Shown piece after piece: positions 559 through 60,936 of a stretch of 64,000 bases of DNA. The notes under the pieces are model-generated. The model searched no databases. It was not told the DNA's origin and was given only the letters and a program-made list of their open reading frames with translations. The first letter of the stretch is position 1. Every line of letters begins with the position of its first letter. The DNA is taken from NCBI GenBank assembly GCA_965262365.1, contig OZ253541.1:5417648-5481647 (forward strand), given 5' to 3'. A program made the translations under genes and the position numbers. The stretch comes from Candidatus Rariloculaceae bacterium. GTDB lineage: Bacteria > Pseudomonadota > Gammaproteobacteria > Steroidobacterales > Rariloculaceae.

Positions 559-598
559 GTAAGCGTTCCGTCAAGGGGGGATCAGCGTTGATCGTACC
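559..598 (+). mobile_element. IS66 left-end stub (40 bp)
   Basis: GTAAGCGTTCCGTCAAGGGGGGATCAGCGTTGATCGTACC closely matches the left end at 7470-7509 and starts with the canonical IS66 GTAA. Confidence 0.8.
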
Positions 599-1810: not shown

Positions 1811-2470
1811 ATGGAAACGGTGGAGCGGTATGAGCGCTTCCTCATCGACGAACGCGGCGCAAGCCCGAAAACGATACTGGCCTATCTCTCGACCGTCCGT
1901 GACTTTCTTGGCGACTGTTTCGAGTCCAGGTGCCAGGATCTTGGATCTCTGGATTGCAGTCACATCAACGGGTTCATACGTCAGTCCTGCCGGACCCAAT
2001 GCTCGGCGACGACACGGGTCCATGTTGCCGCCCTGCGCAGTTTCGCGCGGTATCTGTATCGATCCGGGATCGTCACTGCCGATATTGCCGACGGAATGTG
2101 CCGGGTCAGCACCTGGCGCCTGGCGAACTTGCCGACGGCGTTGGCACCGGACCAAGTCGAAGCGATGCTCGCCAGCTGCAACCGCGAGACGGCCACGGGC
2201 CGGCGCGATTACAGCGTTCTCATGTTGCTGGCGCTCCTTGGGTTGCGCGCTTGCGAGGTCGTCCGTCTGACGCTGGACGATATCGACTGGTCCAACGGCA
2301 AGATTACCGTGGCCGGAAAAGGCGGTCGGCACGACGTTTTGCCGCTGCCCCACCAGGTCGGCGAAGCGCTGGCGGCGTATCTGCAGGGCGGTCGACCGAT
2401 TTGTGCGACACGACGTGTGTTTGTGCGGCGTTATGCCCCTGTAAACGGCTTTCAGTCATCGGCCGCGGTT
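1811..2470 (+). pseudogene. Truncated tyrosine recombinase (RIT/XerD-like)
   Basis: Integrase SAM-like N-part, ...GRRDYSVLMLLALLGLRACEVVRLTLDDIDW...GKGGRHDVLPL; breaks off before the HxxR and Tyr boxes. Confidence 0.75.
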
Positions 2471-3009
2471 GCCCTAAGTGCCAGAGCCTGTCGCAAACTC
2501 GATGGGTCGAGCGCCAGTGCGCCGATCTGCTGGACATCGGCTACTGGCACGTGGTCTTCACCTTGCCCCATCGGCTCAGGTCCTGGCCCTACACTCACAA
2601 GACCGCCATCGGCAACCATCGGCTGATCGACTTCGACGGCGAACACGTGCGGTTCCGATGGCGCGACTACGCCGACGGCAACCGGCGAAAGGTCATGCGG
2701 CTGGAGGTCGACGAGTTCATTCGCCGCTTCCTCCTGCATGTGCTGCCGCGAGGCTTCACCCGCCTGCGCCATTACGGGTTGCTCGCCAATCGCAACCGAT
2801 CCCGGAAGCTTGCCCAATGCCGTGCGTTGCTTGGACAACCGGAGGCCGAACCGCCGAAGGAGGAAACCGCGCAGGAACTGATGTTGCGTGTGACCGGAAT
2901 CGACATTGCCGTGTGCCGGTACTGCGGACGCGGCCAGCTGCGACACCTTGCCATCCTCAAACCGGGTACCGACGCAGTGGTGCCGGCGCCGACGGCGAGA
3001 CCGCCATGA
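2466..3009 (+). pseudogene. IS91-like (Y2) transposase relic with internal deletion
   Basis: RGCPKCQ zinc motif, YWHVVFTLPH joined directly to YTHKTAIGNHRL...FIRRFLLHVLPRGFTRLRHYGLLANR. Confidence 0.8.
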
Positions 3010-3291: not shown

Positions 3292-6200
3292 TTATCTCAA
3301 CGCTGACTCGAGTCGTGGAAGCGTGTTCGGGTGTGCGGGTAGCATCCATTGGATGTCACGGGAGACGCCGGTGAACTCAATTGGCGTGGCTTCCGCGCGC
3401 TGATCTGTCAGTTCTCCGTCCTTGTACCAACCCAGGAGATAGCGCGTGATTTGGTCATCTGACCACCAGAGAGATATAGCATCAGCCGTCCCAACGGCGC
3501 CGGCAGTATATGTGATGGTGAGGTACAGTGGGTCGGTCCATTGTCCTTTCGATCCGGTAGCAAATGGCCACCGATCCGAGTCATCTTCCCACGAAACATC
3601 TTCCAAATAATCTCCCCAATAAAGGTAGAGAAACTCCCCAACGATCGGAGGATTCGCTTCCATGTCCGGCCAGAGCATTTGTATCGTTACCTGGTCAAAG
3701 GCGGGAATCTGCGACGGCAGCCATTCTTCGAATTCATCGTAATAGTCATCGACGCCGATGCCGAATGCTGCCTCGAATGCCTGCTGCCAGGTTGAATTCT
3801 CACCGAGTAACTTCCAGAACTCCACATAAGCGTTTTCCGACGCTTGCTCGGCCAGGAATTTTGCTGCAACGAAACTCAAGGCATAGTAGTAGATTTCACC
3901 GAACGTACATCTGGCATCCGAATACTCTGCCGTTCTGGCCAAATCACCGTAATTGAGTTCGTCGTTGACTTGGGACCAACCCAAGTCTTTGTAGGGGGAG
4001 TACCTGTCACCCACGAAGGGGCGTCGACCCGGCCTGGTTGGGGTGTACTTGTAATCGGCATAGGAAGCGAGCCCTTCCACCAGCCACTGGGGCGCTACGG
4101 CCTGGGTGTCAGTGTGCCATCCAATCTCGCCGTTCTGTAATTGCGAAAATCCCGAAGCAAGTTGTCCCTGGAGAACATGGAAGTACTCGTGAGCGATATG
4201 GTGTTTGAGTGAAGTGAACGAATAAGCCCCCAATCCGTACATGAGCGTAATGACGGCACTGCCCTGGGCGGAAGATGTAACCCACGCATCCGTATATTTA
4301 GCGTCGGGGTGATAGAAGTACCTGAGATCTGTTCCGACTACATCCCCGTATACCGGTGCCAGCGTTTCGTAATTCGTACCGACCAGAACGGTGAAGTTCG
4401 TTGCCGTAACACCAAACTTATCGGCGAAGTACCTTCGGCTGTACTCCAGCTCTTCGCGCAACATGGTCTGCTCGATATCCGGTACATCTCCTGCAAACAT
4501 CCATGTCACAGTGGAATCGATATACTCAAACGGCTTCTCCACGGAGACGCGCACCGCGTAGGAACAGTTGTTTGCGGTATCGGACTCCCCAGACACTGGG
4601 TCGACACAAGCTCCGAAGTAGTAGGTTCCAGAGGTTGACGGGATTGTCAGGCTGATCGACTCATGGCTGGTACCTCCGGGGGAGAGTGCGCTCAACGCGA
4701 TTGTGCCGACCTCCGTGTCCGTCGTTGAAATCGTGAAGTCCGTCGAGCGATAGTAGCGTAGCGTAGTGGCGGCGGACTGACCGGTGCCCTGGTTGCGGAC
4801 GGTCGCATAGTAAGTGATCGAGGCCCCCGGTTCAGGATTGTTGTCGCTAACCGATGTGGACACGACCACCAGGTCCGGCCCGGAAACCTGACCGCAGGTG
4901 ACGTCGTCATCCAGCGGGCATGCGTCATCCGTGTCGGAAACGCCGTCATTGTCATCGTCCGTGTCGGCGTTGTTGCCGATCCCGTCGCCATCCGTGTCGA
5001 CGGACTCGCCCGGATCCTGCGGGAAGGCGTCGTTCGCGTTGGACACGCCGTCGTTGTCGTCGTCCCCGTCGACCATCCCGCCGCCACCTGTCGTGGGCGG
5101 TGTCGCGGGCGCCTCGGTGCTGCCGGCCACCCGATCCATCCGCCACACCCCTTCGCCTTGGTGCGAGGCCTCAAAATCGTAGACCCGCCCGTTGATCGTC
5201 TGGTTGGTGATCCGGATCCTGATACCGGCCAGGAACGTCAGGAACGAACCCCGGCCGCGTTCATTGACGCTGAACGCGTCCGTCGTGCCGGGGTAGGTGC
5301 AGCTCTGCCCAATGCTCACCGACAGACTCACGTAGCATTCGCCCAACGAACCTGTCTCGGTCGTGCCGGTGTTCACCGTGATGGTGAAGCTGAGCGTGTC
5401 GGTGTCGTCATCCTCATCCGTCACGGTGTACGTCATGGCATGGGTGCCCGCCGTGGTCGGTGTGCCGGTGAGTTGGCGCGCGGTGGCGTTGAACGTCAAC
5501 CCGGCCACGTTGGGCGAGAGACTGTAGGCCAGGGTGCCGTTCCCGCCGCTCGCCTCCGGCAGCGTCAATGCATCGATCGCGGTGCCAACGGTGTAGGTCT
5601 GGTCACCCGGGCCGCTTACACTGCGGAAACTCGGGAATCGATCCACTTCGCCCGAACCCGCCGCACGCCCGGTCACGGTGCCTTGGGTCACTGCCCCATT
5701 CACAATGCTGCATCCCGCTGGCGATGTGCAGGTGTATCTCGTGCCATCGCTCAGCTCGAAGTACTCACCGTCATTCAACTCGATCGTCGTGCCGGCGCCG
5801 GTGGCTGTGACACTTCCACCGGACGCCACTGCTGGAAAGAAAAATCCGGATGTGGGCACGCCGGGGAGCATGTCATCAACCCCATACGTGGTGTCGGTGA
5901 CCTCACCGCCGTCATCCTCGTCATCCTCAATGGACCAGCTCCCGCCCAGCCAGGTCCCGTCCGCCGGGTAATCGCTGCCGGTGCAGTGAGAGGCGAACCA
6001 GCCCGCCGTGTGCGTGGAAAAGTACAGGTTCGCCGCGCATTCGTCGCCGTCGTCGTAGGTGAGCGTCAATCGGCCCGCGTCTGGGCCGATGCCTTCGTAG
6101 CCGTAGCTGCCGGTGTAGGTCGTTGAGGTCCCATCGACCTCGCCGGTCTCGCTGAACTCATCGCCCGTCATGGCATTGAGCGTGAAGCGGTCGCTACCGC

Positions 6201-7119
6201 TAAGGTAGACAACGTCGATCCCGACGAAGCGTTCGTTGAACGCCTCAAGATCCGCCGGCGCCGCTCCCGGCACCGCAGTCGTTGAAAGGTTGTTCCAGTA
6301 CCCGGCGGTGGCCGCGACGATATTCACCACCTGAAGCGGCTGGTCCGACGACACCGTCAGCCGCCACTTGCCGGTGCCGGCGCCCAACTGGCCCGTGATG
6401 GCGGTGGCACCCGCCTCCAGTTGCTGCGCGGTCAGCGTCTGAGCACCGCCCGCCGCAAGCGTCAGCGTCACGTCTCCCCCGGTGGCCGCGGCACCGCCGT
6501 CGTCGCGCCCCGCAATCGTCACCGAAGCCGCCGCATCGCCCGGATTGATCAGCCGCAGCCGGCTCACCTGGGTGGCGTCGCTGGCGGGGTTGAAGATCGG
6601 CACTTCATAGGTGTAACCGTCCGACCCGTCAGTGGCCGCCGCGCCGCGCACCGTATCGTGCATCGCGCTCAGTGTGCCGTCGGCAGCGCGAACGAAGGCC
6701 AGGGGCACGATGGAAAGATCCGTCTCGATCTGAAGGCGCGCATCGCCCACGTCCGTGCCGATACCCCCGGTCAATCCCAGGGTCGCGTTACCGGAGGCAA
6801 GGTCGGTGGCCGTGAACTGCACCGCCGCCGAGGCGTTCAGCGTGAAGGTGGCGGGACCGGATCGTGTGCCGGCGTCATCGATGGCGTAGATCTCCACCGT
6901 GCCGGACTCGTCCGTGCCGTTGAGAATCCGCAGCACCCCCTGCGGCTCGCTCGATGTGCCCGCCGGCGCCAACAGCGGCACCGTGTAGTGCTCGGCTTGC
7001 GCCGCCGAAGCAAAAAACAGCAGACCCGCGAGGACAAGGCGTCGGAAAATCCTGCTCTTAATTTTGATAAGCCTTCCCGGCCTGCGGCGAGTCCATGCAG
7101 CGGTCAATTTGCGGAACAT
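3292..7119 (-). CDS. Large secreted modular protein: duplicated N-terminal beta domains, putative Ig (He_PIG-like), thrombospondin type-3-like Ca repeats, CARDB, C-terminal HExxH zinc metallopeptidase-like domain
   Basis: Signal-like RRLVLAGLLFFASAAQA; DGDDDNDGVSNANDAFPQDP/DTDGDGIGNNADTDDDNDG; PDLVVVSTSVSDNNPEPG...VRNQG; HHIAHEYFHVLQ...WLVEGLASY. Start uncertain (7158 or 7119). Confidence 0.8.
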   Translation of the reverse strand: MFRKLTAAWTRRRPGRLIKIKSRIFRRLVLAGLLFFASAAQAEHYTVPLLAPAGTSSEPQGVLRILNGTDESGTVEIYAIDDAGTRSGPATFTLNASAAVQFTATDLASGNATLGLTGGIGTDVGDARLQIETDLSIVPLAFVRAADGTLSAMHDTVRGAAATDGSDGYTYEVPIFNPASDATQVSRLRLINPGDAAASVTIAGRDDGGAAATGGDVTLTLAAGGAQTLTAQQLEAGATAITGQLGAGTGKWRLTVSSDQPLQVVNIVAATAGYWNNLSTTAVPGAAPADLEAFNERFVGIDVVYLSGSDRFTLNAMTGDEFSETGEVDGTSTTYTGSYGYEGIGPDAGRLTLTYDDGDECAANLYFSTHTAGWFASHCTGSDYPADGTWLGGSWSIEDDEDDGGEVTDTTYGVDDMLPGVPTSGFFFPAVASGGSVTATGAGTTIELNDGEYFELSDGTRYTCTSPAGCSIVNGAVTQGTVTGRAAGSGEVDRFPSFRSVSGPGDQTYTVGTAIDALTLPEASGGNGTLAYSLSPNVAGLTFNATARQLTGTPTTAGTHAMTYTVTDEDDDTDTLSFTITVNTGTTETGSLGECYVSLSVSIGQSCTYPGTTDAFSVNERGRGSFLTFLAGIRIRITNQTINGRVYDFEASHQGEGVWRMDRVAGSTEAPATPPTTGGGGMVDGDDDNDGVSNANDAFPQDPGESVDTDGDGIGNNADTDDDNDGVSDTDDACPLDDDVTCGQVSGPDLVVVSTSVSDNNPEPGASITYYATVRNQGTGQSAATTLRYYRSTDFTISTTDTEVGTIALSALSPGGTSHESISLTIPSTSGTYYFGACVDPVSGESDTANNCSYAVRVSVEKPFEYIDSTVTWMFAGDVPDIEQTMLREELEYSRRYFADKFGVTATNFTVLVGTNYETLAPVYGDVVGTDLRYFYHPDAKYTDAWVTSSAQGSAVITLMYGLGAYSFTSLKHHIAHEYFHVLQGQLASGFSQLQNGEIGWHTDTQAVAPQWLVEGLASYADYKYTPTRPGRRPFVGDRYSPYKDLGWSQVNDELNYGDLARTAEYSDARCTFGEIYYYALSFVAAKFLAEQASENAYVEFWKLLGENSTWQQAFEAAFGIGVDDYYDEFEEWLPSQIPAFDQVTIQMLWPDMEANPPIVGEFLYLYWGDYLEDVSWEDDSDRWPFATGSKGQWTDPLYLTITYTAGAVGTADAISLWWSDDQITRYLLGWYKDGELTDQRAEATPIEFTGVSRDIQWMLPAHPNTLPRLESALR

Positions 7120-7624
7120 GCTCACCAACGACGAATACATCGTGTAGGGATTGCGCACGATATTGACGAACCGGGCCGCCGGTCAAAAGCTCCAACCATG
7201 CGGCACTCACCGTGGCGATGTGCGCGACACGACCGCGTCCCTCGCCGTCGAACCCATTCCATCGCCTCCATCCTCGGCTCGCGACGAACGTCCGGGCGTG
7301 TTCCGGAACCGAAGATCCCCGTCCACCGGCTTTCCCGGTGCGCGCGCGCGCGAGCGATGAAAAAATACACACGAAAGCCATAGTAGAAGAATGGCGCGCC
7401 GATGTATCTCCCCAACATTGGGGGAGAGGAGGCGTTTTTTTTTCGAACGGTTTCAGTCGGTTACGGAGAGGAACCGTTCCGTCAAGCGGGGATCGGCGTT
7501 GATCGTACCCTATTTTTCCGTAATCGAGCTGGCTGGCGGCTTCGAGTATTTTGTGACCGGTGCCGGTGAGAAAATCGCTTTGGGGCGCTGGTAACACGAT
7601 CGGCATTGCGGTATCGTTGCGCGC

Positions 7625-9874
7625 ATGGCGATTCGCGCAGAGGATGTCCGCACAGAACTGACGCTGATTGAGCGTGCCGAGGGGACCGGGCCGCAGCCTA
7701 AGGCGGTGCCGGCGGGTGAGCGGCGCGACTACCGTTTGCTGTATGAGCGGGAGGTGGCGCGGGCGGGCGAAGCCGAAGCCCGGGCGAAAGCGGCCGAAGC
7801 GCGAGCCGAAGAGTTTCGCTGTGCGGAGGTCAGGACCCGTTTCGAATCCGCTTCCTGGAAGCATCGGTACGAGCTTTCCCGGAGGAAGCTGACGAGAGTC
7901 GTCGAGCAGACGAAGGCAATCCGGGGCACGGCGAACAACGCGCAGTCGTTGCAGGGATCGCAGCACCGGAAAGACACGATCAAGTCGCTGCGCACGGAAC
8001 GCGGCGGGCTGCGCAAGGAGGTGACCCGGCTGAACCGGGACCTCACTCGGCTGGAGACGCGTCTGGCCCGCCAGACGGAGAAGTCGGAGACCCACAAGAA
8101 AACCATCCTGCGGCTTTACAAAGAGGACGTTCGGCTTCGTAGGGAGCTGAGGGGATTACGCGATCAAGAGGATGTAGTTGGGTCGCTGTGCGACGAGGTG
8201 TACTGGTTGCGTTATGCCCTGAAGAGGTCGGAGGCCGGGAAGGAGGCGTTGAAAGCCCGGCTGGTCAAGCTTCGCGCCACCGGGGCGACGCTTTCGAAGT
8301 TGCCGTCCGACGAGGTCGCACAGCTGCGCAAGGCGCTGAGGCGGTCGCGGCGCCAGAAGACGACGATCAAGTCACTGTACAAGGAGAACGCCCGGCTGCG
8401 CAGGGCGGCGCAGGTGTCGCAAAGCCGCAAGGAGGCCTTGAGCGCGGAGTTAGCGGAGGTTCGTGCGAGTCGGGCCGTATTGTCGAAGTGGCTGTACGGG
8501 CGCAGGAGCGAGCAACAGGACAAGTTCCGCTCGGCGCGTCGGCGCGGCCAGCAGCCTGGCGCTCCCGGCCATGGCCGCACCCCGCGACCGGGGCTTGAGG
8601 AACGGATCGAAATCCACCAACCGCCGGCGGAAGCATGCGTGTGTGGCCGCTGCGGTACCCCGTATGTGGCCAACGGCGAGCGTTCCACCACGATCGTCGA
8701 AATCGACGTGAAGGCGCATACACGGCGCATCGTCCGTCCCCGCTGGCGCCGGCGGTGCGACTGTGCCGATTCCCCGCCGGATGTTATCGCGGCAACGCCG
8801 GACCGGGTGTTCGCCCGCGCGGCCTACGGCACCAGCGTGTGGACGCATGTTCTGTTCGAGCGCTACCTGTGCAATCGGCCGCCGAACGGGGTGGCGATGT
8901 CGTTGTCGCATCAGGGACTGCCCATCTCCGCCGGTACGCTGGCCCGCGGGCTGGCGCGGCTCGCGCCGCTGTTCCAGCGGCTGGCGCTGGCGATGCTGGA
9001 GCACCAGAACGAGGCGGCTGTGCGCCACGGCGACGAGACCGGCTGGCGTATCCAGGCGCTGCGCCAGGCGGGACGTTCCGGGCGCGCCTGGCTGTGGGTC
9101 TCGGTGACCGAGCATGCCGTGTACTTCCACATCGATCCCTCGCGCAGCGCCGAGGCGGCGCTGAAGGTGTTCGGCGGTGCCGTGGGCGTGCAGGTCCTGG
9201 TGGTCGACCGCTACTCCACTTACAAGAAGCTGGCCCGCGTGCTCGAGGGCCGGGTGATCCTGGCGTGGTGCTGGGCGCACCAACGCCGCGACTATATCGA
9301 CTGCGCCGCCGGGCAGGTGGAACTGAGCGAATGGTGTCAGGCATGGTTGGGGCGCATCGCCGCAATCTACCGGCTGAACAAGACGCGGCTGTCGCATTAC
9401 GAGTCCAGTGCCGAGAGACAGAACGAGGCGTTCGACACCGCGCAGCGGGCGCTGGAAACCGAGGTCAAGGGTCTGTTCGCCACCGTCGAACGGGAACTGG
9501 CGGGGCTTGACGACACCGCACCCGAGGCCGGGCCGCTGCGCTCGCTGCTGAAGCATCGCGATGGCCTGAGCGTGTTCCTCGAACGGCCCGAGGTGCCCAT
9601 GGACAATAATTTTGCCGAGCGCACGCTTCGAAGCGCGGTTATCGGACGGCGCCTGTCGTTCGGCTCCGACAGCGAGGCCGGCGCGCGGTTCACCGCGATG
9701 ATGTACTCGGTCGTGGGCACGCTCGCGTTGAACGGCCTCAATGTGCGCGCTTGGCTGCACGAGTGGCTTAACGCGTGCGCGGCCAATGGCGGGCGGGCGC
9801 CACCGGACCTGTCCGAGTGGCTGCCGTGGTCGATGAGCCAGGCGCGCCGACGGACCCTGATGGCCCCGGGATGA
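7625..9874 (+). CDS. IS66-family transposase (TnpC-like) with a long N-terminal coiled coil
   Basis: LYGRRSEQ, RRRGQQPGAPGHGR, CxCxxC zinc finger, RHGDETGW, LVVDRYSTY, WCWAHQRR, DNNFAERTLR. Confidence 0.9.
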   Translation: MAIRAEDVRTELTLIERAEGTGPQPKAVPAGERRDYRLLYEREVARAGEAEARAKAAEARAEEFRCAEVRTRFESASWKHRYELSRRKLTRVVEQTKAIRGTANNAQSLQGSQHRKDTIKSLRTERGGLRKEVTRLNRDLTRLETRLARQTEKSETHKKTILRLYKEDVRLRRELRGLRDQEDVVGSLCDEVYWLRYALKRSEAGKEALKARLVKLRATGATLSKLPSDEVAQLRKALRRSRRQKTTIKSLYKENARLRRAAQVSQSRKEALSAELAEVRASRAVLSKWLYGRRSEQQDKFRSARRRGQQPGAPGHGRTPRPGLEERIEIHQPPAEACVCGRCGTPYVANGERSTTIVEIDVKAHTRRIVRPRWRRRCDCADSPPDVIAATPDRVFARAAYGTSVWTHVLFERYLCNRPPNGVAMSLSHQGLPISAGTLARGLARLAPLFQRLALAMLEHQNEAAVRHGDETGWRIQALRQAGRSGRAWLWVSVTEHAVYFHIDPSRSAEAALKVFGGAVGVQVLVVDRYSTYKKLARVLEGRVILAWCWAHQRRDYIDCAAGQVELSEWCQAWLGRIAAIYRLNKTRLSHYESSAERQNEAFDTAQRALETEVKGLFATVERELAGLDDTAPEAGPLRSLLKHRDGLSVFLERPEVPMDNNFAERTLRSAVIGRRLSFGSDSEAGARFTAMMYSVVGTLALNGLNVRAWLHEWLNACAANGGRAPPDLSEWLPWSMSQARRRTLMAPG

Positions 9875-10752
9875 CCGCCGAAATGGAGTGCCGCTATTAC
9901 GGACGCGACTTCACGGTGGAGGAAATGGCGCTGCTGCGCGCGCTCATCGCCGGGCTCCCCGCCCTGAACCGCTTCGCCCTGTCGAAAGAGTTCTGCCGGC
10001 GCATCGGCTGGTACAAGCCCGACGGCGGGCTCAAGGACATGATGGCGCGGGTCGCCATGCTGGCCATGCACCGTGACGGGCGCATCGCCCTGCCGCCGCC
10101 GAAGTGGGGACGCAACCCGGCCGTGCCAATCACGTTCGGGCCCGAAACCGACGCGCCGCTGGAACCGCCGCCCGTCACCCTCAATGAGGCGCGTCCGATC
10201 CGCCTGCGAACCGTGCTCGGGGCCACTCCCCAGAGCAAGCAGTGGAACGCGTTCATCGCCCGCTACCACTACCTCGGCTACAAGACCCTGGTCGGCGCGC
10301 AGATGCGCTACACCGTCCATGACCGCCACGGTCGCCTGCTGGCCCTGCTCGGCTTCTCCACCGCGGCACGGACACTCGCCCCGCGCGACCGCTTCATCGG
10401 CTGGACGCCGGCGCTGCGCCAGAAGAACCTGCCGCTGGTGATCGACAACGCCCGCTTCCTGATCCTGCCCTGGATCCGCATCCCCAACCTGGCCTCGCAC
10501 ATCCTGTCCGTCGTCTGCCGACAACTGCCCGGGCAGTGGACCGAGCGCTACAACACCTCGCCGGTGTTGATCGAAACCTTCGTGGAGACCCCGCGCTTCA
10601 CAGGCGCCACCTACAAAGCCTCGGGGTGGGTCAACGTCGGCACCACCCAAGGACGCGGGCGCTACGACCGCTACAAACAGTACGACAAGCCGAAAAAGGA
10701 CATCTGGCTTCGCCCCCTGCGCAAAGACTGGCAACGAACCCTCAACCGGTAG
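9871..10752 (+). CDS. DUF4338 (Druantia DruA-like) domain protein
   Basis: ATGA overlap with the transposase stop; FIARYHYLGY, NARFLILPW, NLASHIL, ETFVETPRFTGATYKASGW, GTTQGRGRYD. Confidence 0.8.
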   Translation: MTAEMECRYYGRDFTVEEMALLRALIAGLPALNRFALSKEFCRRIGWYKPDGGLKDMMARVAMLAMHRDGRIALPPPKWGRNPAVPITFGPETDAPLEPPPVTLNEARPIRLRTVLGATPQSKQWNAFIARYHYLGYKTLVGAQMRYTVHDRHGRLLALLGFSTAARTLAPRDRFIGWTPALRQKNLPLVIDNARFLILPWIRIPNLASHILSVVCRQLPGQWTERYNTSPVLIETFVETPRFTGATYKASGWVNVGTTQGRGRYDRYKQYDKPKKDIWLRPLRKDWQRTLNR

Positions 10753-10855
10753 GTCATCCGAACACCGATCAGGTTATCAGCCCTCCCTCGCTTGCACCGC
10801 GCTCACTGGATCGGCAAAAATCTCCGTCATCTATCCCCGCTTGACGGAACGGTTA

Positions 10856-11669
10856 TTGCGCCAGGGAAAGCCCTGGAGAGGAGAATGCTATGAATTGAAA
10901 CTGAAACCTCTCGTAGCGATCCAGCGGGTTCGACTCCCGCCCGGCAAAGGCGCAGCCCGCCAGCCGGAAGCAAGTCTTGCGTGGCGCGCGGCAACGCCCG
11001 TCGTGAAGCGTAGACAGCAGGTGATGAAGCGGCGGAGGAAGCCTCGAAATCGGAATCGATGACGCCTTCATTGTTAATCGTGTGGGGGCAGCACCGGAAG
11101 CGCCGCTATTGGTGAGGCGCAACGGGTCGTCCGGGGTCGTGGACCGGCGCAGAGTCACGGAATGGATCGCCTGGGAACCTGGGAGGTCCTGCTCACGCCC
11201 ACGGGCAACGACGCTGGAAGGGGATTGCCAGCATAAATCCAGACCCCGGCCCGTCGCCGGGCCTGCACGGCGGCGGGACCGCCCGATGCGGACACGAATT
11301 CCGACAGGCACCCGTGGAACCGGCTGGCGAAAACAATAAGCCGAAGGACATGCGAGGGCAGGAAGTCGTAGCGCCTTGATAGTACCTGTGAAGGCGGGGA
11401 ACCGTGGCCCTCGGGACCCGCTGGAGGGAAGCGGGGCGTCACTTGTACAGAGCCACTGATGGGAAACGCTGGAGGAAACGCTGAGTTCCACAAACACGTA
11501 CACGAAACAGCAGTGGATAGCCGAACAGGCGAGGGAGCGGTCTTCCTCAACCTGCGGATCAAGGACGAAACTCCTTGAGCGAACCTGTCAGGTGAGGAAC
11601 CGAGTGCGTCAATCGCGCACGCTCGGGTCTGCGGGGGGAGGGGCTCGGTAACGACCCCTCCTACCCGGC
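10856..11669 (+). ncRNA. ORF-less group II intron (IIB-like), copy 1
   Basis: 5' TTGCG; EBS1 loop TAATCGT at 11075-11081; domain V GAACCGAGTGCGTCAATCGCGCACGCTCGGGTC at 11597-11629; domain VI with GTAA loop and bulged A, ending CCTACCCGGC; repeated at 59081-59894. Confidence 0.9.
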
Positions 11670-11785
11670 CGCTCAAAGAGCCGACATGAGAGCGCTGTAA
11701 TTGGAATAAATCTGTATGCGGTTTGCTTACGAAGCAAAGTGGCCAAGAAGACTTAGCGACTAACCACGCCAATCTTTTTCCCATA

Positions 11786-12185: not shown

Positions 12186-12395
12186 TCAGAACGGGCGGGG
12201 TTCGCCGAACAGGTGCAGCTGGCGTTCGTGGCAGGACTCGGCGGGGCACGGGGGCGGCCGGATGGATTCTGCGTGGCGCCTGATCTGGCCGTAGTAGCGG
12301 CCTTCGAAGTCATAGGCGATGCGTTGCAGGCACTCGGCCATGTGCGCGGCGGCCTCGTCGCTGATCTGCTCGGGCCGGGGATCGGGATCGATCAT
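12186..12395 (-). CDS. Small transposon-associated hypothetical protein (69 aa)
   Basis: ATG overlaps the ATPase stop; MIDPDPRPEQISDEAAAHMAECLQRIAYDFEGRYYGQIRRH. Confidence 0.6.
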   Translation of the reverse strand: MIDPDPRPEQISDEAAAHMAECLQRIAYDFEGRYYGQIRRHAESIRPPPCPAESCHERQLHLFGEPRPF

Positions 12396-13192
12396 GGCCG
12401 CAGATCCTCGACGGCGCGGGCCAGGTGTTCGGCGTCCACGGTACGCGCTTGCTCGACCGCCGCGGCCGAGAGCGCGTAGTGGGCGATGCGGTTGATGAGC
12501 CGCGGCAGTCCGCGGGCGGCCTGGTACAGCGCCTCGATGGCGGGGGGATCGAACAGGGGCATTTCGCACCCGGCCAGGCGCAGCCGGTGGGCGAGGTAGG
12601 GGTCCAGTTCCTCGCGCTCCAGCCCGCGCAGGTGGTGTTGAACGATGAGTCGCTGTTGCATCGATTCGTGCACGGCCATGCTCAGGCGCCGGCGCAGTTC
12701 GGTCAGTCCGATGAGCACCAGGCACAGCCTGGGGGCGGAGTCCATGTCGAAGTTGGTCAGCAGCCTGAGGTCCTCGATCACGTCGGCTCTGAGGTGGTGA
12801 GCCTCGTCGATGACGAGCACCGGTTGTTGCTTGGCCTCCCCGACCAGGCGGGTGATCTCGGTCTGGATGGCGCGGTAGGCCGCGGCGCGGGCGTGCTCGG
12901 TAGGCAGGCCCAGTTCCCAGCCGATGCTCTTGTACATGTCCATCACGTTGCCGGTGGACAGCGCCACGTAGCACACCCGGAACAGCCCCGGGTGCAACGC
13001 ACCGGTGACGTGGCGGCACACGCTGGTCTTGCCGCTGCCGGACTCCCCGGTCAGCAGCCCGATACCGCGCAGATCGATGAGGTGCTTGAGCCGCGCCTCG
13101 GCCTCGCGATGGGAGCCGCAGCGGAACAGCTCGTCGGTGTGCGCGGGGGTTTCGAACGGCAGGCGGGTCAGGGCGAAGTGGCGCAGGTACAT
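12392..13192 (-). CDS. ExeA/TnsC-like AAA+ ATPase
   Basis: MYLRHFALTRLPF, Walker A GESGSGKT, Walker B VLVIDEAH, GLPRLIN. Confidence 0.9.
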   Translation of the reverse strand: MYLRHFALTRLPFETPAHTDELFRCGSHREAEARLKHLIDLRGIGLLTGESGSGKTSVCRHVTGALHPGLFRVCYVALSTGNVMDMYKSIGWELGLPTEHARAAAYRAIQTEITRLVGEAKQQPVLVIDEAHHLRADVIEDLRLLTNFDMDSAPRLCLVLIGLTELRRRLSMAVHESMQQRLIVQHHLRGLEREELDPYLAHRLRLAGCEMPLFDPPAIEALYQAARGLPRLINRIAHYALSAAAVEQARTVDAEHLARAVEDLRP

Positions 13193-14523
13193 CAGTCTTC
13201 CTCCTTCAGTCGGCGGATGCTCAGCGGCGAGCGCGGCGGTTGCGGCTCCCCGGGCTCGATGCGCCCGCAGCGGCGCTCGCGTTTCACGGCGGTGTTGGCG
13301 TAGGCGTCCAGCGGCGTGGCCAGGCCCGCGGGACGTCCCTCGTGCACCAGTTGCAGCGCCCGGGTGGGCGGGGCGGCCGGATCGTATCGCACGGTGACGG
13401 TTTGCCCGATGAGGATCGCGTCGGCCTCGTAGAGGCGCCCGTGCAGACTCAGGGTGCGGTCCTTGAGCACGCGGCGTTTGGTCTCGAACAGGAACAGCTC
13501 GTCCAGATCCAGCCCGGCGGCGTCCGGGTAGCGCACCTCGGCGGCGGTCCCGGCCCAGCGGTCCAGCGGGGTCTGACCGTCCAGTCCGCGGTGCGGGGAC
13601 TGATGGTATTCGCCCTCCACCCAGCCGGCCAGCGCACGGTTCAACGCCTCGATCCCGTCGATCGAGCCCACATCCAGATGGCGCAGCCAGCCGGCGCGCA
13701 GGGTGCGGAACCAGCGTTCGATCTTGCCCTTGCCGGCCGGTTGATACGGGCGGGCGTGGATGAGCGCAATGCCGAGCTTCGCGCACACCAGCGCGAGGTG
13801 GCGGGAGCGGTAATTCGCCCCGTTGTCCACGTAGAGGCGCTCGGTGAGTCCGCGGCGCAGCAGCGCGTGCTTGAACACCGGCAGGAACGCGGCGGTGTTC
13901 TCGGCGAAGGCGAACGCGGCGTGGGGAATGACGCGGGTGGCGTCGTCGATGAAGGCGATGAGGAAGGTCTTGCGCCGGCGGCGACCGTCAGGGACCTTCG
14001 GCCCGTGCATTACATCGCTCATCCAGAGTTGGCCCGCCCGGCGATAGTTGAAGCGGCGCCGGTCCGTGGCGGGTCCCTGCGCGGCGGCCCGGCCCGTCAG
14101 CCCCTCGCGGCGCAGCAACCGCTGCACGGTGGACGCCGAGGGCATCGCCGCCTCGCTCACCAGCCCGTGCTCGGCGGCGTGGGCGATGACCGCGCGCACG
14201 GAGTAGCCGGGGCGCCGGGTCTTGATCGCCACCAGCGCCTCGGCGACCTCCGCGGGCATGCGCCGGGGCCGGCCCAGGTCCGAGCGACGTTTCGGGTACA
14301 GCGCCTCGAAGCCACCGTAGCGGTACGTCACCAGCCACTTGCGTATCGTCTCCGCGGCCACCCGGGTGCGGTGCGTGCCGGGGATCGCGTAGGTCCCGGC
14401 GGCCTTTTCTTTCAGCTTCTCACCGATGCCGCGGGCGCCGCGGGGCAGGTGCGCCAAGTCCGCGATCAGCCCGTAGCGGAACAGCGCCACGGCCTCTCGC
14501 AGCTTCTCGTCGTGCTCGGTCAT
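13192..14523 (-). CDS. DDE transposase/integrase (rve core, Mu-like C-terminus)
   Basis: WMSDVMHG, FIDDATR, YVDNGANY, KGKIERWF, YHQSPHRGL. Confidence 0.9.
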   Translation of the reverse strand: MTEHDEKLREAVALFRYGLIADLAHLPRGARGIGEKLKEKAAGTYAIPGTHRTRVAAETIRKWLVTYRYGGFEALYPKRRSDLGRPRRMPAEVAEALVAIKTRRPGYSVRAVIAHAAEHGLVSEAAMPSASTVQRLLRREGLTGRAAAQGPATDRRRFNYRRAGQLWMSDVMHGPKVPDGRRRRKTFLIAFIDDATRVIPHAAFAFAENTAAFLPVFKHALLRRGLTERLYVDNGANYRSRHLALVCAKLGIALIHARPYQPAGKGKIERWFRTLRAGWLRHLDVGSIDGIEALNRALAGWVEGEYHQSPHRGLDGQTPLDRWAGTAAEVRYPDAAGLDLDELFLFETKRRVLKDRTLSLHGRLYEADAILIGQTVTVRYDPAAPPTRALQLVHEGRPAGLATPLDAYANTAVKRERRCGRIEPGEPQPPRSPLSIRRLKEED

Positions 14524-58985: not shown

Positions 58986-60936
58986 TCAGTCGATCGGCTT
59001 GCCATCAGCATCGTATCTGGCCAGTTGCCGGATCCCGCTCGATATCGACAAGGTACCATCCAGGTATCGACGAACGATTATTGCGCCAGGGAAAGCCCTG
59101 GAGAGGAGAATGCTATGAATTGAAACTGAAACCTCTCGTAGCGATCCAGCGGGTTCGACTCCCGCCCGGCAAAGGCGCAGCCCGCCAGCCGGAAGCAAGT
59201 CTTGCGTGGCGCGCGGCAACGCCCGTCGTGAAGCGTAGACAGCAGGTGATGAAGCGGCGGAGGAAGCCTCGAAATCGGAATCGATGACGCCTTCATTGTT
59301 AATCGTGTGGGGGCAGCACCGGAAGCGCCGCTATTGGTGAGGCGCAACGGGTCGTCCGGGGTCGTGGACCGGCGCAGAGTCACGGAATGGATCGCCTGGG
59401 AACCTGGGAGGTCCTGCTCACGCCCACGGGCAACGACGCTGGAAGGGGATTGCCAGCATAAATCCAGACCCCGGCCCGTCGCCGGGCCTGCACGGCGGCG
59501 GGACCGCCCGATGCGGACACGAATTCCGACAGGCACCCGTGGAACCGGCTGGCGAAAACAATAAGCCGAAGGACATGCGAGGGCAGGAAGTCGTAGCGCC
59601 TTGATAGTACCTGTGAAGGCGGGGAACCGTGGCCCTCGGGACCCGCTGGAGGGAAGCGGGGCGTCACTTGTACAGAGCCACTGATGGGAAACGCTGGAGG
59701 AAACGCTGAGTTCCACAAACACGTACACGAAACAGCAGTGGATAGCCGAACAGGCGAGGGAGCGGTCTTCCTCAACCTGCGGATCAAGGACGAAACTCCT
59801 TGAGCGAACCTGTCAGGTGAGGAACCGAGTGCGTCAATCGCGCACGCTCGGGTCTGCGGGGGGAGGGGCTCGGTAACGACCCCTCCTACCCGGCCGCGAG
59901 AGTTGGCCAACCTGCACTTCAGACGATCGCCAGGCAGCCTCAACAAGCGGCTCTTGAAGCGCACGCAATTGTCCTTGCGCACGACCCTCCAGTACTGCTC
60001 ACACAGGATGTCGACCAATTGAGAGGGATCCGTACAAGGTTCGAACGCAGAACCCTCTCGTTGAGCGACCTGCTGGAATTCCTCGTTGTATGCGCGCTGA
60101 TAGATACTTGCCAGGTAGCGGTTGGCTGCGGCAAATTCGGTGATCCCTGCAGCCGCAAGTTCCGACGGTAACCGGTTCATATGAGTTTGAAAGACGCGCT
60201 GGCAGCGTGTGCGAACCTGCGTGGAGCGAGTTGCGACCAACTTGATCCCAAGCTGCATCATTGCCCGCTCAATCTGGGTGAGTTTCCGGGGACCTTGTGT
60301 TTCGGCCGCCTCCGCCTTCCCTTTGTATCGATACTGTGACGTACGATCAGTGTAAAGCGAGCAGAAAAACCCCTTTCGCTCGAGCACGTCACGGACGCCG
60401 ACAAGGCTGCTCCGGGTACCTGCCTGTTCGCAGACGAACATCGAATAGTGCTCACTCGTGGCGTCGTCCAATGTCACCACCAGATCGCAGTGACGCCCAG
60501 CCAGCCACTCGTGTCTGGAACTATCCTGGTGCAGCCTCAGGCCGGGTAGCGACGCGCGATCAAAGCGCAAACGGTGCAGCCCCCGCCGCGGCAGTTTTTT
60601 AACAGCCCCTGCGTCCTGCAGTTGCATCCGCACCCAGTTGTAGCTGCGCTGGCCGCCTTCGTAGCGGTACCAGGCGTAGAATTGTTTGACGTTCCAGCCT
60701 TCGTGTTGCTTGTTGTATGCGTTGACCACGTCTGCAATCTCGTCCAGCGGCGCCCGACGTGGAGAGCCCCGTAACTGGCGTCTATCGATCAATCCCTCCG
60801 AACCGCCGCTTTCGAAACGATGAACGTAACGACGAAACGTTCTATCGCTTACACCAAGCAATTTGGCCGCTACGGTCTGTGTAATCCTACGGGACTTCCA
60901 GGCTCTGTACAGACTTTCAAACTTCATGATCCGCAA
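58986..60936 (-). pseudogene. ISNCY-family transposase interrupted by an antisense group II intron (coding parts 60936-59895 and 59080-58986; 378 aa rejoined)
   Basis: HTH AAKLLGVSDRTFRR, LHQDSSRHEWL, TLDDATSE, YTDR; rejoined C-terminus [37 protein letters not shown]. Confidence 0.85.
59081..59894 (+). ncRNA. ORF-less group II intron (IIB-like), copy 2
   Basis: Same 814 nt as 10856-11669 (matching ORF-track translations); EBS1 at 59300-59306, domain V at 59822-59854. Confidence 0.9.

What the first reader, a model, noticed from the sequence alone, without database searches (positions are those of the whole stretch)
11064..11089. EBS1 loop explains both insertion sites
Seen: stem GCCTTCAT/GTGGGGGC encloses the loop TGTTAATCGT. 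TAATCGT (11075-11081) is the exact complement of ACGATTA before copy 2 and pairs with ACGGTTA before copy 1 through one G-U wobble. Both 3' exons start with CGC. This independently supports the boundaries and target-primed insertion rather than DNA duplication. I could not place EBS2 with confidence.
Basis: seen in the sequence. Interest (0 to 1): 0.65.

Follow-up and report, generated by a model that had tools for sequence, protein, structure and literature searches.

The report
Target-reading loop of a protein-less intron
The marked hairpin loop is the EBS1 guide sequence of an 814-base mobile group II intron that has lost its own protein gene. Base-pairing by this loop explains where all 11 copies in the genome landed, which is ordinary intron biology in an unusually clean example.

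Summary
Observation and reading both hold.

**The element.** Window 10856-11669 and 59081-59894 are two of 11 copies of an 814-nt ORF-less group II intron. Ten copies are identical and one differs by a single base.

**EBS1.** The loop at 11072-11081 sits on a covarying 8-bp stem, in the variable loop of Rfam model RF02005.
- All 11 copies follow ACGRTTA.
- Related introns with other loop sequences follow matching exon ends. Among 63 unique intron/target combinations (17 loop types), 50 pair at 6 of 6 positions. None of 10,000 permutations did as well.

**Boundaries.** Unoccupied paralogous sites read ...ACGGTTA|CACC..., so the insert is exactly UUGCG...CCGGC.

**Other contacts placed.**
- EBS2 at 11051-11055. 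It is weak at both window sites.
- EBS3 is G11139, pairing with the +1 C of the 3' exon.
- Gamma is G11368, pairing with the last base of the intron.

**Mobility.** Intact reverse transcriptase/maturase genes without an endonuclease domain lie in about 7 related full-length introns, so the ORF-less form is probably moved in trans. All 19 copies lie co-oriented with replication if the origin is at dnaA (17 of 19 by GC skew). This suggests replication-fork priming rather than classical target-primed reverse transcription.

**Targets.** Several insertion sites are the outermost bases of IS66-type inverted repeats.

**Side observation.** The whole clade starts with U instead of G, ends in GGC or GGA, and reads AAC where domain V normally has AGC.

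The parts
10856..11669 (+). ORF-less group II intron, copy 1 (814 nt; 5' UUGCGCC ... CCUACCCGGC 3')
   Evidence: RF02005 scores 125 bits at 10931-11146. RF00029 scores 35.8 bits at 11595-11669. The exact ends come from empty paralogous sites. There are 11 copies in the genome.
59081..59894 (+). ORF-less group II intron, copy 2, identical to copy 1. It lies antisense in an ISNCY-type transposase gene.
   Evidence: Removing it leaves a 394-codon antisense ORF with HTH domains.
11064..11089 (+). EBS1 hairpin: stem 11064-11071 with 11082-11089, loop 11072-11081
   Evidence: Sequence, Rfam consensus hairpin, covariation with 99.1% of cells paired, and MFE fold.
11075..11081 (+). EBS1 (UAAUCGU). The core 6 nt are 11075-11080.
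   Evidence: It pairs with ACGRUUA at all 11 copies. Across 17 loop types, 50 of 63 combinations pair at 6 of 6 positions, and 0 of 10000 permutations did as well.
11051..11055 (+). EBS2 (CGGAA; the effective part is CGG, perhaps with U11050). It lies in the 5'-strand internal loop below the EBS1 hairpin and pairs with exon positions -9 to -13.
   Evidence: Covariation across 21 EBS2 types: mean 3.5 of 5 pairs for cognate targets against 2.3 for non-cognate, and 0 of 10000 permutations did as well. Pairing is weak at the two window sites, 2 of 5 each.
11139..11139 (+). EBS3 (G, intron nt 284), pairing with the first 3'-exon base
   Evidence: The position is G where +1 is C (44 of 47 in the raw alignment column) and U where +1 is A (12 of 12). 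The L139-141 mismatches are a one-base alignment shift. L128 is a possible real exception.
11368..11368 (+). Gamma (G, intron nt 513, J2/3), pairing with the last intron base C11669 (gamma')
   Evidence: The position is G in 36 of 36 introns ending in C and U in 6 of 6 introns ending in A.
11440..11538 (+). Retained 5' part of domain IV, the expected binding region for the intron protein and the start of the lost ORF
   Evidence: It is 97% identical to the resident full-length introns, against about 90% for nt 1-683 overall. Its role as a binding region is inferred.
11597..11629 (+). Domain V. It has the canonical shape (9-bp lower helix, AC bulge), but the triad reads AAC (11598-11600) instead of AGC.
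   Evidence: RF00029 alignment. The feature is present throughout the clade, with helix covariation fixing the register.
11632..11667 (+). Domain VI, with bulged A at 11663 as branch-point candidate, 6 nt before the 3' end
   Evidence: RF00029 alignment and sequence.
10849..10855 (+). IBS1 of copy 1 (ACGGTTA)
10843..10847 (+). IBS2 position of copy 1 (GACGG; only 2 of 5 positions pair)
   Evidence: Register taken; sequence.
11670..11670 (+). IBS3 of copy 1 (C). It is also the terminal base of the IS66-type right inverted repeat.
59074..59080 (+). IBS1 of copy 2 (ACGATTA)
59895..59895 (+). IBS3 of copy 2 (C)
7470..10855 (+). IS66-family element whose right end is split by copy 1. The left inverted repeat is at 7470-7493 and the right at 10833-10855 plus C11670. 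It carries a DDE_Tnp_IS66 ORF (7625-9874) and a DruA-like ORF (9775-10752).
   Evidence: Pfam and inverted-repeat matches. No target-site duplication was found.
6613..6622 (-). Unoccupied paralogous target site (GGACGGTTA|C) inside the 1288-aa CARDB-domain ORF 3292-7158. The same site is occupied in three paralogs elsewhere in the genome.

Best explanation
The hairpin loop at 11072-11081 is exon-binding site 1 (EBS1) of a IIB-like group II intron.

**How the target is read.** In the RNA, or in its complex with a reverse transcriptase/maturase, four pairings set the insertion point:
- UAAUCG(U) pairs with the last 6-7 bases of the 5' exon (ACGRUUA).
- A short EBS2 (CGG, 11051-11053) pairs with CCG two bases further upstream.
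- G11139 (EBS3) pairs with the first 3'-exon base, C.
- G11368 (gamma) pairs with the last intron base.

The same pairings should guide both splicing and reverse splicing into DNA, so they fix the insertion point at ACGRTTA^C.

**How it moves.** The 814-nt element has lost its protein gene. Two deletions in domain IV left ORF remnants. It is most likely spliced and mobilised in trans by the protein of the related full-length introns in the same genome. That protein has RT and maturase (X) domains but no endonuclease domain. cDNA synthesis is therefore probably primed by nascent DNA at replication forks after reverse splicing into the lagging-strand template.

**Shown here:** the sequence, the structure with covariation, the exact ends, the target rule at 11 sites, the covariation of EBS1, EBS2, EBS3 and gamma, intact protein genes elsewhere in the genome, and the strand bias.

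**Inferred:** actual splicing, mobilisation in trans, and the priming route.
For: - **Ends.** Empty paralogs read ...ACGGTTACACCTA..., which fixes both ends with no sliding ambiguity.
- **Target rule.** All 11 ORF-less copies follow ACGRTTA and precede C.
- **Within-genome covariation.** Variant A has loop UAAGUG and targets ACGCTTA, ACGTTTA and ACACTTA. Variant B has loop UAACUG and target ACAGTTA. In a sister genome, 7 copies with UAACUG sit at ACGGTTA or ACAGTTA.
- **Family-wide covariation.** Examples are GGUCAA/TTGACC, CGACAA/TTGTCG, UGCAAG/CTTGCA, GUUGGG/CCCAGC and UAAGCA/TGCTTA. Of 63 combinations, 50 are fully paired; non-cognate targets average 3.1 of 6 pairs; 0 of 10000 permutations did as well.
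- **Stem.** Covariation and slide controls support it: 97.5% of cells are paired in register, against 33-48% when the partner is slid.
- **Other contacts.** EBS2, EBS3 and gamma all covary.
- **Protein.** TIGR04416 scores 347 bits against a cut-off of 300, with no endonuclease domain. Four identical intact full-length copies exist.
- **Domain IVa region.** It is 97% identical to the resident full-length introns.
- **Orientation.** 17 of 19 copies are co-oriented with the leading strand if the origin is at the skew minimum, and 19 of 19 if it is at dnaA.
- **Precedents.** ORF-less introns driven by another intron's protein (PMC2882425). Lagging-strand bias and targeting of IS inverted repeats by introns without an endonuclease domain (PMC5894124, PMC4615759).
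Against:
- **Domain V score.** RF00029 gives 35.8 bits for this copy, below the family's gathering score of 40.
- **Core bases depart from the consensus.** U1, the AAC triad and the ...GGC end might mean poor or protein-dependent catalysis.
- **The ORF-less form is not recently derived from the resident introns.** It is only about 90% identical to them, and no closer parent was found among 80 related loci. Which protein moves it is therefore unknown.
- **EBS2 pairing is poor** at both window sites, 2 of 5 positions each.
- **One relative breaks the rule.** The G001 intron (L092) sits at a site with a G-G mismatch at position -4.
- **Many sites are empty.** There are 294 unoccupied ACGRTTAC sites in the genome.
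- **Thermodynamics is uninformative.** The fold of the region is no better than shuffles, z = -0.26.
Confidence: 0.93

Rival explanations
1. The complementarity is coincidental. The two window copies arose by DNA-level duplication or by hitch-hiking on other mobile elements, not by RNA-guided insertion.
For: A 7-mer able to pair with both exons arises by chance in 10-26% of 814-nt sequences. Several copies lie in or beside transposons. Two variant-B copies do share identical flanks, so some DNA duplication occurs in this genome.
Against: - Flanks diverge exactly at the intron ends, and empty sites exist.
- All 11 copies carry the same 7-nt upstream motif.
- Loop and exon covary across 17 loop types.
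- The three CARDB-gene paralogs differ in their flanks while their introns are identical.
Confidence: 0.02
2. Target choice is made mainly by the protein, or by recognition of the IS inverted-repeat structure in the way IIC introns read hairpins. On this view the loop pairing is secondary.
For: - Many targets share a longer motif (ATCCCC...GAACGNTTAC) that is an IS66-type inverted repeat.
- Position -9 is G at all 11 sites.
- Most ACGRTTAC sites are empty.
- RmInt1-type proteins do read distal exon positions (PMC4615759).
Against: - Seven of 11 sites are not IS ends: five lie in sense orientation inside long ORFs and two lie antisense.
- The variable exon positions -4 and -5 change together with the loop.
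- The G at -9 is itself explained by EBS2 (C11051).
- No stem-loop is needed upstream.
- A protein contribution at other positions remains likely and is compatible with the main explanation.
Confidence: 0.04
3. The ORF-less intron is an immobile, catalytically dead relic, because of its AAC triad, U1 and missing protein gene. Its copies would then be old.
For: The core bases are non-canonical. RF00029 scores below its threshold. Reviews state that most ORF-less introns have lost mobility (PMC4424553).
Against: - Ten copies are 100% identical and one differs by a single base.
- Flanking paralogs have diverged while their introns have not.
- The ORF-less form is absent from 40 related genomes.
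- The same non-canonical bases occur in every protein-coding member of the clade, many of them multi-copy and identical within a genome.
- Five copies interrupt long ORFs in sense orientation.
Confidence: 0.05

Closest known systems
TeI3 ORF-less group II introns of Thermosynechococcus elongatus, mobilised by 'driver' proteins of TeI4 introns (Mohr et al. 2010, PMC2882425)
   Same: - The protein gene was deleted from domain IV, leaving N- and C-terminal remnants.
- Related protein-coding introns live in the same genome.
[quoted passage not shown]
   Different: - It is a different lineage: TeI introns are chloroplast-like with a D/En-type protein, whereas here the protein has no endonuclease domain and domain I is of the RF02005 type.
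- Here there is one uniform family of 11 copies, not several diverged families.
- Mobilisation in trans was shown by experiment for TeI3 and is only inferred here.
RmInt1 and RmInt2, class D (IIB3) introns of Sinorhizobium meliloti (PMC5894124, PMC4615759)
   Same: - The protein has RT and X domains but no endonuclease domain.
- EBS1, EBS2 and EBS3 all take part in target recognition.
- RmInt2 has a 2-nt linker between IBS1 and IBS2.
- RmInt2 uses the inverted repeats of an IS element as targets, so that one site of each pair is on the lagging-strand template.
- Insertions are biased to the lagging-strand template.
   Different: - Class membership was not tested here.
- The bases at the ends and in domain V differ from the GUGYG...AY and AGC consensus.
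- This element is ORF-less.
- The insertion point is one base inside the IS terminus.
Rfam RF02005 (group-II-D1D4-6) introns, for example the Klebsiella pneumoniae plasmid intron in NZ_CP036336.1
   Same: The domain I architecture is the same, including the hairpin with the variable loop and the 5'-strand internal loop below it. The protein is 39% identical.
   Different: The Klebsiella intron has a canonical GUGCG start, an AGC triad and a ...GAC end. The present clade has UUGCG or UAGCG, AAC and ...GGC or GGA, a tail one base shorter, and an extra hairpin of about 41 nt near the 5' end.

Membership tests
Group II intron (ribozyme) | Domain I with the conserved architecture | tested here: met
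   RF02005 scores 125.4 bits against a gathering score of 49, over the full model.
Group II intron (ribozyme) | Domain V (34-nt hairpin with a 2-nt bulge) followed by domain VI with a bulged A | tested here: inconclusive
   RF00029 matches over its full length but scores 35.8 bits, below the gathering score of 40. Clade relatives score 40.5-46. The shape is canonical and the helix register is confirmed by covariation.
Group II intron (ribozyme) | AGC (or CGC) catalytic triad in domain V | tested here: not met
   The triad reads AAC (11598-11600). The base opposite the middle A varies (G, C, A or U) across the clade.
Group II intron (ribozyme) | 5' GUGYG and 3' AY ends | tested here: not met
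   The ends are UUGCG ... GGC, fixed by empty sites. The whole clade has U(U/A)GCG ... GG(C/A).
Group II intron (ribozyme) | EBS1-IBS1 pairing next to the 5' splice site | tested here: met
Group II intron (ribozyme) | Gamma-gamma' pairing (J2/3 with the last intron base) | tested here: met
   G:C switches to U:A without exception, 36 and 6 sequences.
Group II intron (ribozyme) | Splicing with exon ligation | not testable with these tools
IIB structural type (as opposed to IIC or IIA) | EBS2-IBS2 present, and EBS3 in domain I pairing with the +1 exon base | tested here: met
   EBS2 statistics. EBS3 covariation. The base 5' of EBS1 is U and cannot pair with the +1 C, so the IIA-type delta-delta' contact does not fit.
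IIC introns (terminator or attC targeting) | No EBS2, a short EBS1, insertion after a stem-loop, and a CGC triad | tested here: not met
   EBS1 is 6-7 bp and EBS2 is present. Seven of 11 sites lie inside ORFs with no hairpin. The triad is AAC.
Mobile group II retroelement with an RT/maturase protein | Intron-encoded RT/maturase in domain IV | tested here: not met
   The 814-nt form has no ORF longer than remnants. The related 2028-nt introns in the same genome encode it: TIGR04416 at 347 bits and RVT_1 at 124 bits.
Non-autonomous ORF-less intron mobilised in trans (TeI3-like) | Related protein-coding introns in the same genome, and multiple near-identical copies at EBS-matching sites | tested here: met
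Non-autonomous ORF-less intron mobilised in trans (TeI3-like) | Demonstrated mobilisation by a heterologous intron protein | not testable with these tools
   This needs a mobility assay.
Class D (RmInt1-like) introns | Protein without D/En domains, and insertions biased to the lagging-strand template | tested here: met
Class D (RmInt1-like) introns | Phylogenetic placement of the protein, with the class D C-terminal signature | not tested
   No reference set of classified intron proteins was at hand. Classes D, E, F and the g groups remain open.

The most novel reading that the evidence does not exclude
This intron belongs to a widespread and evidently active clade. Its members occur in sponge- and soil-type MAGs, and in Bradyrhizobium, Mesorhizobium, Labrys and Rhizobium. 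The clade has replaced three bases that are nearly invariant in the group II active site and splice sites:
- G1 has become U.
- The middle G of the domain V AGC triad has become A, with no fixed partner opposite it.
- The penultimate A has become G.

All the usual tertiary pairings are kept. If these introns splice and reverse-splice efficiently, two things follow. The U1 / penultimate-G pair would be a natural covariant of the G1-penultimate A contact. The AAC triad would show that the middle G is not indispensable for catalysis.
Probability: 0.3. Interest if true: 0.7.

Novelty: new member of a known kind. Interest (0 to 1): 0.42.

Why it matters
For the finding itself, it turns a two-site guess into a full target rule: CCG-NN-CGRTTA^C, read by EBS2, EBS1 and EBS3. 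That rule predicts which genomic sites can be invaded. It also shows a protein-less intron spreading more than its autonomous relatives, which reviews describe as rare in bacteria.

The intron cuts one base inside the ends of IS66-type transposons and interrupts at least five long ORFs in sense orientation. It therefore bears on both transposon activity and host gene expression in this genome.

The wider interest lies in the clade's non-canonical catalytic bases. If confirmed by experiment, they would bear on what the group II (and by analogy the spliceosomal U6) AGC triad really requires.

Tried and rejected
- **Thermodynamics.** The fold of 11036-11146 reproduces the hairpin, but its energy is no better than shuffles (z = -0.26). 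It was not used as evidence.
- **EBS2 by eye.** My first guesses (CGUCG near 11001, or UCGAU) were dropped once covariation fixed the register.
- **3' end.** I considered an end one base further on, which would give a canonical ...AC in the full-length form. The empty sites exclude it, and so does gamma-gamma'.
- **Domain V register.** Alternative registers (GAA, or an AGG three pairs lower) do not keep the distance to the bulge.
- **J2/3 comparison.** The alignment with distant RF02005 introns was too poor to use.
- **Class assignment.** Classes D, E, F and the g groups could not be told apart from the papers read.
- **Target-site duplication.** None was found for the IS66-family element.
- **Literature on the unusual bases.** A search for an AAC triad found nothing. 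UUGCG as a 5' end was found once, for an unrelated CL1 intron.
- **Tn3-type inverted repeat and integron attC site.** Both were considered for the target motif and dropped, because orientation and sequence do not fit.

Full report
**1. What is at the coordinates**

- The stem is GCCTTCAT (11064-11071) paired with GTGGGGGC (11082-11089).
- It encloses the loop TGTTAATCGT (11072-11081).
- TAATCGT (11075-11081) is the reverse complement of ACGATTA (59074-59080).
- It pairs with ACGGTTA (10849-10855) through one G-U.

Rfam places a group II domain I model over both copies: RF02005 (D1D4-6), 125 bits, at 10931-11146 and 59156-59371. A domain V/VI match (RF00029, 35.8 bits, just below its gathering score of 40) ends at 11669. 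The two window copies are identical from 10856 to 11669 and from 59081 to 59894, plus the shared bases CGC that follow.

**2. Is the match more than chance?**

By itself, barely. A 7-mer that can pair with both exon ends occurs somewhere in 10% of shuffled introns and in 26% of random 814-nt genome pieces. Position, copy number and covariation are what make it convincing.

*Position.* In the Rfam alignment the loop falls on the variable terminal loop of a conserved hairpin. That hairpin sits above a 5'-strand internal loop and beside a second hairpin, all closed by a long stem. In an alignment of 27 distinct relatives:
- The 8-bp stem is paired in 99.1% of cells.
- Its two loop-proximal pairs switch from A-U and U-G to G-C.
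- Sliding the partner strand by 1-3 columns drops pairing from 97.5% to 33-48%.
- The MFE fold gives the same hairpin.

*Copy number.* The genome is one 6.03-Mb contig and the window is 5417648-5481647.
- It holds 11 copies of the 814-nt element. Ten are identical and one has a single change.
- It also holds about seven related 2028-nt introns, about 90% identical over nt 1-683.
- Every one of the 11 copies is preceded by ACGRTTA and followed by C.

*Covariation within the genome.* The full-length introns carry other loop sequences and sit behind other exon ends.

| Variant | Loop | Exon ends |
|---|---|---|
| ORF-less form | UAAUCG | ACGATTA, ACGGTTA |
| A | UAAGUG | ACGCTTA, ACGTTTA, ACACTTA |
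| B | UAACUG | ACAGTTA |

Seven copies in a sister genome have UAACUG and sit behind ACGGTTA or ACAGTTA.

*Covariation across the family.* A search with the intron protein returned 80 loci from many phyla. After aligning their 5' parts, the loop tracks the exon.

| Loop | Exon end |
|---|---|
| GGUCAA | TTGACC |
| CGACAA | TTGTCG |
| UGCAAG | CTTGCA |
| GUUGGG | CCCAGC |
| UAAGCA | TGCTTA |
| UAACUA | TAGTTA |
| UGUGAG | CTCGCA |

- There are 63 unique intron/target combinations and 17 loop types.
- 50 combinations pair at all six positions.
- Non-cognate combinations average 3.1 of 6 pairs.
- None of 10,000 type-level permutations reached the observed value.
- Exceptions exist. The single copy in genome G001 has a G-G mismatch at -4, and a few others have one mismatch.

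**3. Boundaries**

Several targets have unoccupied paralogs. One is genome position 5249035; another lies in the window at 6613-6622 on the minus strand.
- The empty sites read ...GGACGGTTACACCTA....
- The occupied ones read ...GGACGGTTA[TTGCGCC...CCCGGC]CACCTA....
- No alternative placement of the ends fits, so the intron is exactly 10856-11669. It starts UUGCG and ends GGC.

Covariation of intron nt 513 with the last base confirms the 3' end at the RNA level. The position is G11368 in this copy. It is G in 36 of 36 introns that end in C, and U in 6 of 6 that end in A. This is the gamma-gamma' contact.

**4. EBS2 and EBS3**

*EBS2.* The five bases that follow the conserved CGAnAn motif, in the internal loop below the EBS1 hairpin, pair with exon positions -9 to -13. 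Two bases are left as a linker. Examples:

| EBS2 | Exon positions -13 to -9 |
|---|---|
| UUGCA | TGCAA |
| GCUCU | AGAGC |
| CAUGG | CCATG |
| CACGU | GCGTG |

- Cognate targets average 3.5 of 5 pairs and non-cognate 2.3.
- None of 10,000 permutations did as well.
- In this intron EBS2 is CGGAA (11051-11055), of which only CGG usually pairs, with CCG.
- At both window sites only 2 of 5 positions pair.

*EBS3.* It is intron nt 284, G11139. In the raw alignment column it is G where the first 3'-exon base is C (44 of 47) and U where that base is A (12 of 12). The L139-141 mismatches are a one-base alignment shift, and L128 is a possible real exception.

The RNA-read target is therefore about CCG-NN-CGRTTA^C.

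**5. Occupancy**

- The genome has 294 empty ACGRTTAC sites and 11 occupied ones.
- With CCGR upstream there are 14 empty and 3 occupied.
- Only 4 of those 14 empty sites face the replication direction that the occupied ones use.

**6. How it moves**

*Loss of the protein gene.* The 814-nt form has no protein gene. Compared with the full-length form, nt 684 to about 1930 are missing, apart from a 25-nt internal scrap.

*The protein available in the genome.*
- The full-length introns encode a protein of about 449 aa that matches the group II RT/maturase model (TIGR04416, 347 bits; Pfam RVT_1).
- Nothing follows the maturase region, so there is no endonuclease domain.
- Four variant-A copies are identical, with intact ORFs.
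- The retained start of domain IV, where such proteins bind, is 97% identical between the ORF-less and full-length forms. The overall figure is about 90%.

Mobilisation in trans is therefore plausible. It has a precedent in Thermosynechococcus (PMC2882425). It is not proven here, because no close parent of the ORF-less form was found. The ORF-less form is absent from 40 related genomes.

*Strand bias.* All intron copies lie on the + strand between about 4.88 Mb and 0.51 Mb (through the contig end) and on the - strand between 1.70 and 4.41 Mb.
- With the origin at the cumulative GC-skew minimum (4.07 Mb), 17 of 19 copies are co-oriented with the leading strand.
- With the origin at dnaA (4.54 Mb), 19 of 19 are.
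- This is the pattern reported for introns without an endonuclease domain, such as RmInt1. These reverse-splice into the lagging-strand template and use nascent DNA as primer (PMC5894124).

**7. Where it lands**

*Copy 1.* It lies one base inside the right end of an IS66-family element.
- The left inverted repeat is at 7470.
- The right repeat is at 10833-10855, with its terminal base now at 11670.
- The element carries a DDE_Tnp_IS66 ORF and a DruA-like ORF.
- On the other strand the end reads G^TAACCGTTCC.... This fits the GTAA start known for IS66-family repeats (my own knowledge of that family).

*Other IS ends.* Three more ORF-less copies, and the variant-A introns, sit in the same position of related repeats. 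These include the repeats of a 3.5-kb transposon present in many copies. Using both inverted repeats of an IS as targets is known for RmInt2 (PMC4615759).

*Copy 2.* It lies antisense in a transposase gene.

*Genes.* Five copies interrupt long ORFs in sense orientation. Three of them are in paralogous CARDB-domain genes whose flanks differ while the introns are identical.

**8. Unusual core bases**

Every member of the clade (protein at least 66% identical) shares three departures from the consensus:
- It starts U(U/A)GCG.
- It ends GG(C/A).
- It has GAACCG...CGGNUC in domain V. That is AAC where AGC is expected, with any base opposite the middle A.

Helix covariation fixes this register, and the AC bulge is at its canonical distance.

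More distant RF02005 introns are canonical. A Klebsiella plasmid intron with a 39% identical protein has GUGCG, AGC and ...GAC. The changes are therefore derived in this clade.

Many clade members are multi-copy and identical within a genome, which argues that they are active. Reviews give only AGC or CGC for the triad (PMC4424553, PMC7923331). A UUGCG...GU boundary has been reported once, for an unrelated intron (PMC7923331). I found no description of an AAC clade, but my search was limited.

**9. Verdict**

It is extended by a full set of exon-binding sites, exact ends, a target rule and a likely mobility route. As a piece of biology it is a new member of a well-known kind. The side observation on the catalytic bases is the part that could interest specialists.

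Noticed in passing
window 10856, 11598-11600, 11668-11669; loci L063-L142: The whole clade begins with U (UUGCG or UAGCG) and ends GGC or GGA. It has AAC instead of the AGC triad in domain V, with a variable base opposite the middle A. A more distant RF02005 intron on a Klebsiella plasmid is canonical (GUGCG, AGC, GAC).
   Followed up: partly
genome G000, all 19 intron copies: Orientation follows the replichores. Copies are on the + strand from about 4.88 Mb through the contig end to 0.51 Mb, and on the - strand from 1.70 to 4.41 Mb. That is 17 of 19 with the origin at the skew minimum (4.07 Mb) and 19 of 19 with dnaA (4.54 Mb) as origin. The stretch 4.07-4.54 Mb has mixed skew and may be rearranged.
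   Followed up: yes
genome G000, e.g. 1732436/1735952, 4081324-4097635, 5509493-5516562: About 34 ends of a 3.5-kb transposon carry the repeat GTAAGCGTTCGGTCACGCGGCGAT, the target of the variant-A full-length intron. Some copies stand in head-to-head arrays separated by about 10 bp (CTTCAAGGG).
   Followed up: no
window 6613-6622 (-), inside ORF 3292-7158 (-): An unoccupied copy of the intron target (GGACGGTTA|C) lies in a 1288-aa CARDB/He_PIG-domain gene. Three paralogs elsewhere in the genome carry the intron at this very codon (TA|C, Tyr). This empty site faces the replication direction that occupied sites do not use.
   Followed up: partly
window 559-582 (+) and 1930-3009 (+): A further IS66-type left end (GTAAGCGTTCCGTCAAGGGGGGAT) has no obvious partner. 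An IS91-family (Y2_Tnp) transposase fragment lies nearby.
   Followed up: no
locus L088 (CBDCME010000043.1): Two introns of this family stand head to tail: the 3' exon of the first begins TTGCGCCAGG.... A second copy evidently inserted at the same 5'-exon site, although the +1 base was then U.
   Followed up: no
genome G000 4397458-4397627 and 345133-345302 (L061, L062): A second, shorter RF02005-type domain I (74-78 bits) occurs twice in the genome, with no domain V match within 3 kb. It may belong to another intron family or be fragments.
   Followed up: no
window 10869-10910: Compared with distant RF02005 introns, this clade has an extra hairpin of about 41 nt (AGAGG...CCUCU) just after the first stem at the 5' end.
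   Followed up: no
window 12392-14523 (-): A TniB-like AAA ATPase gene and an rve/Mu-type transposase gene lie just downstream of copy 1, so this stretch is a pile-up of mobile elements.
   Followed up: no
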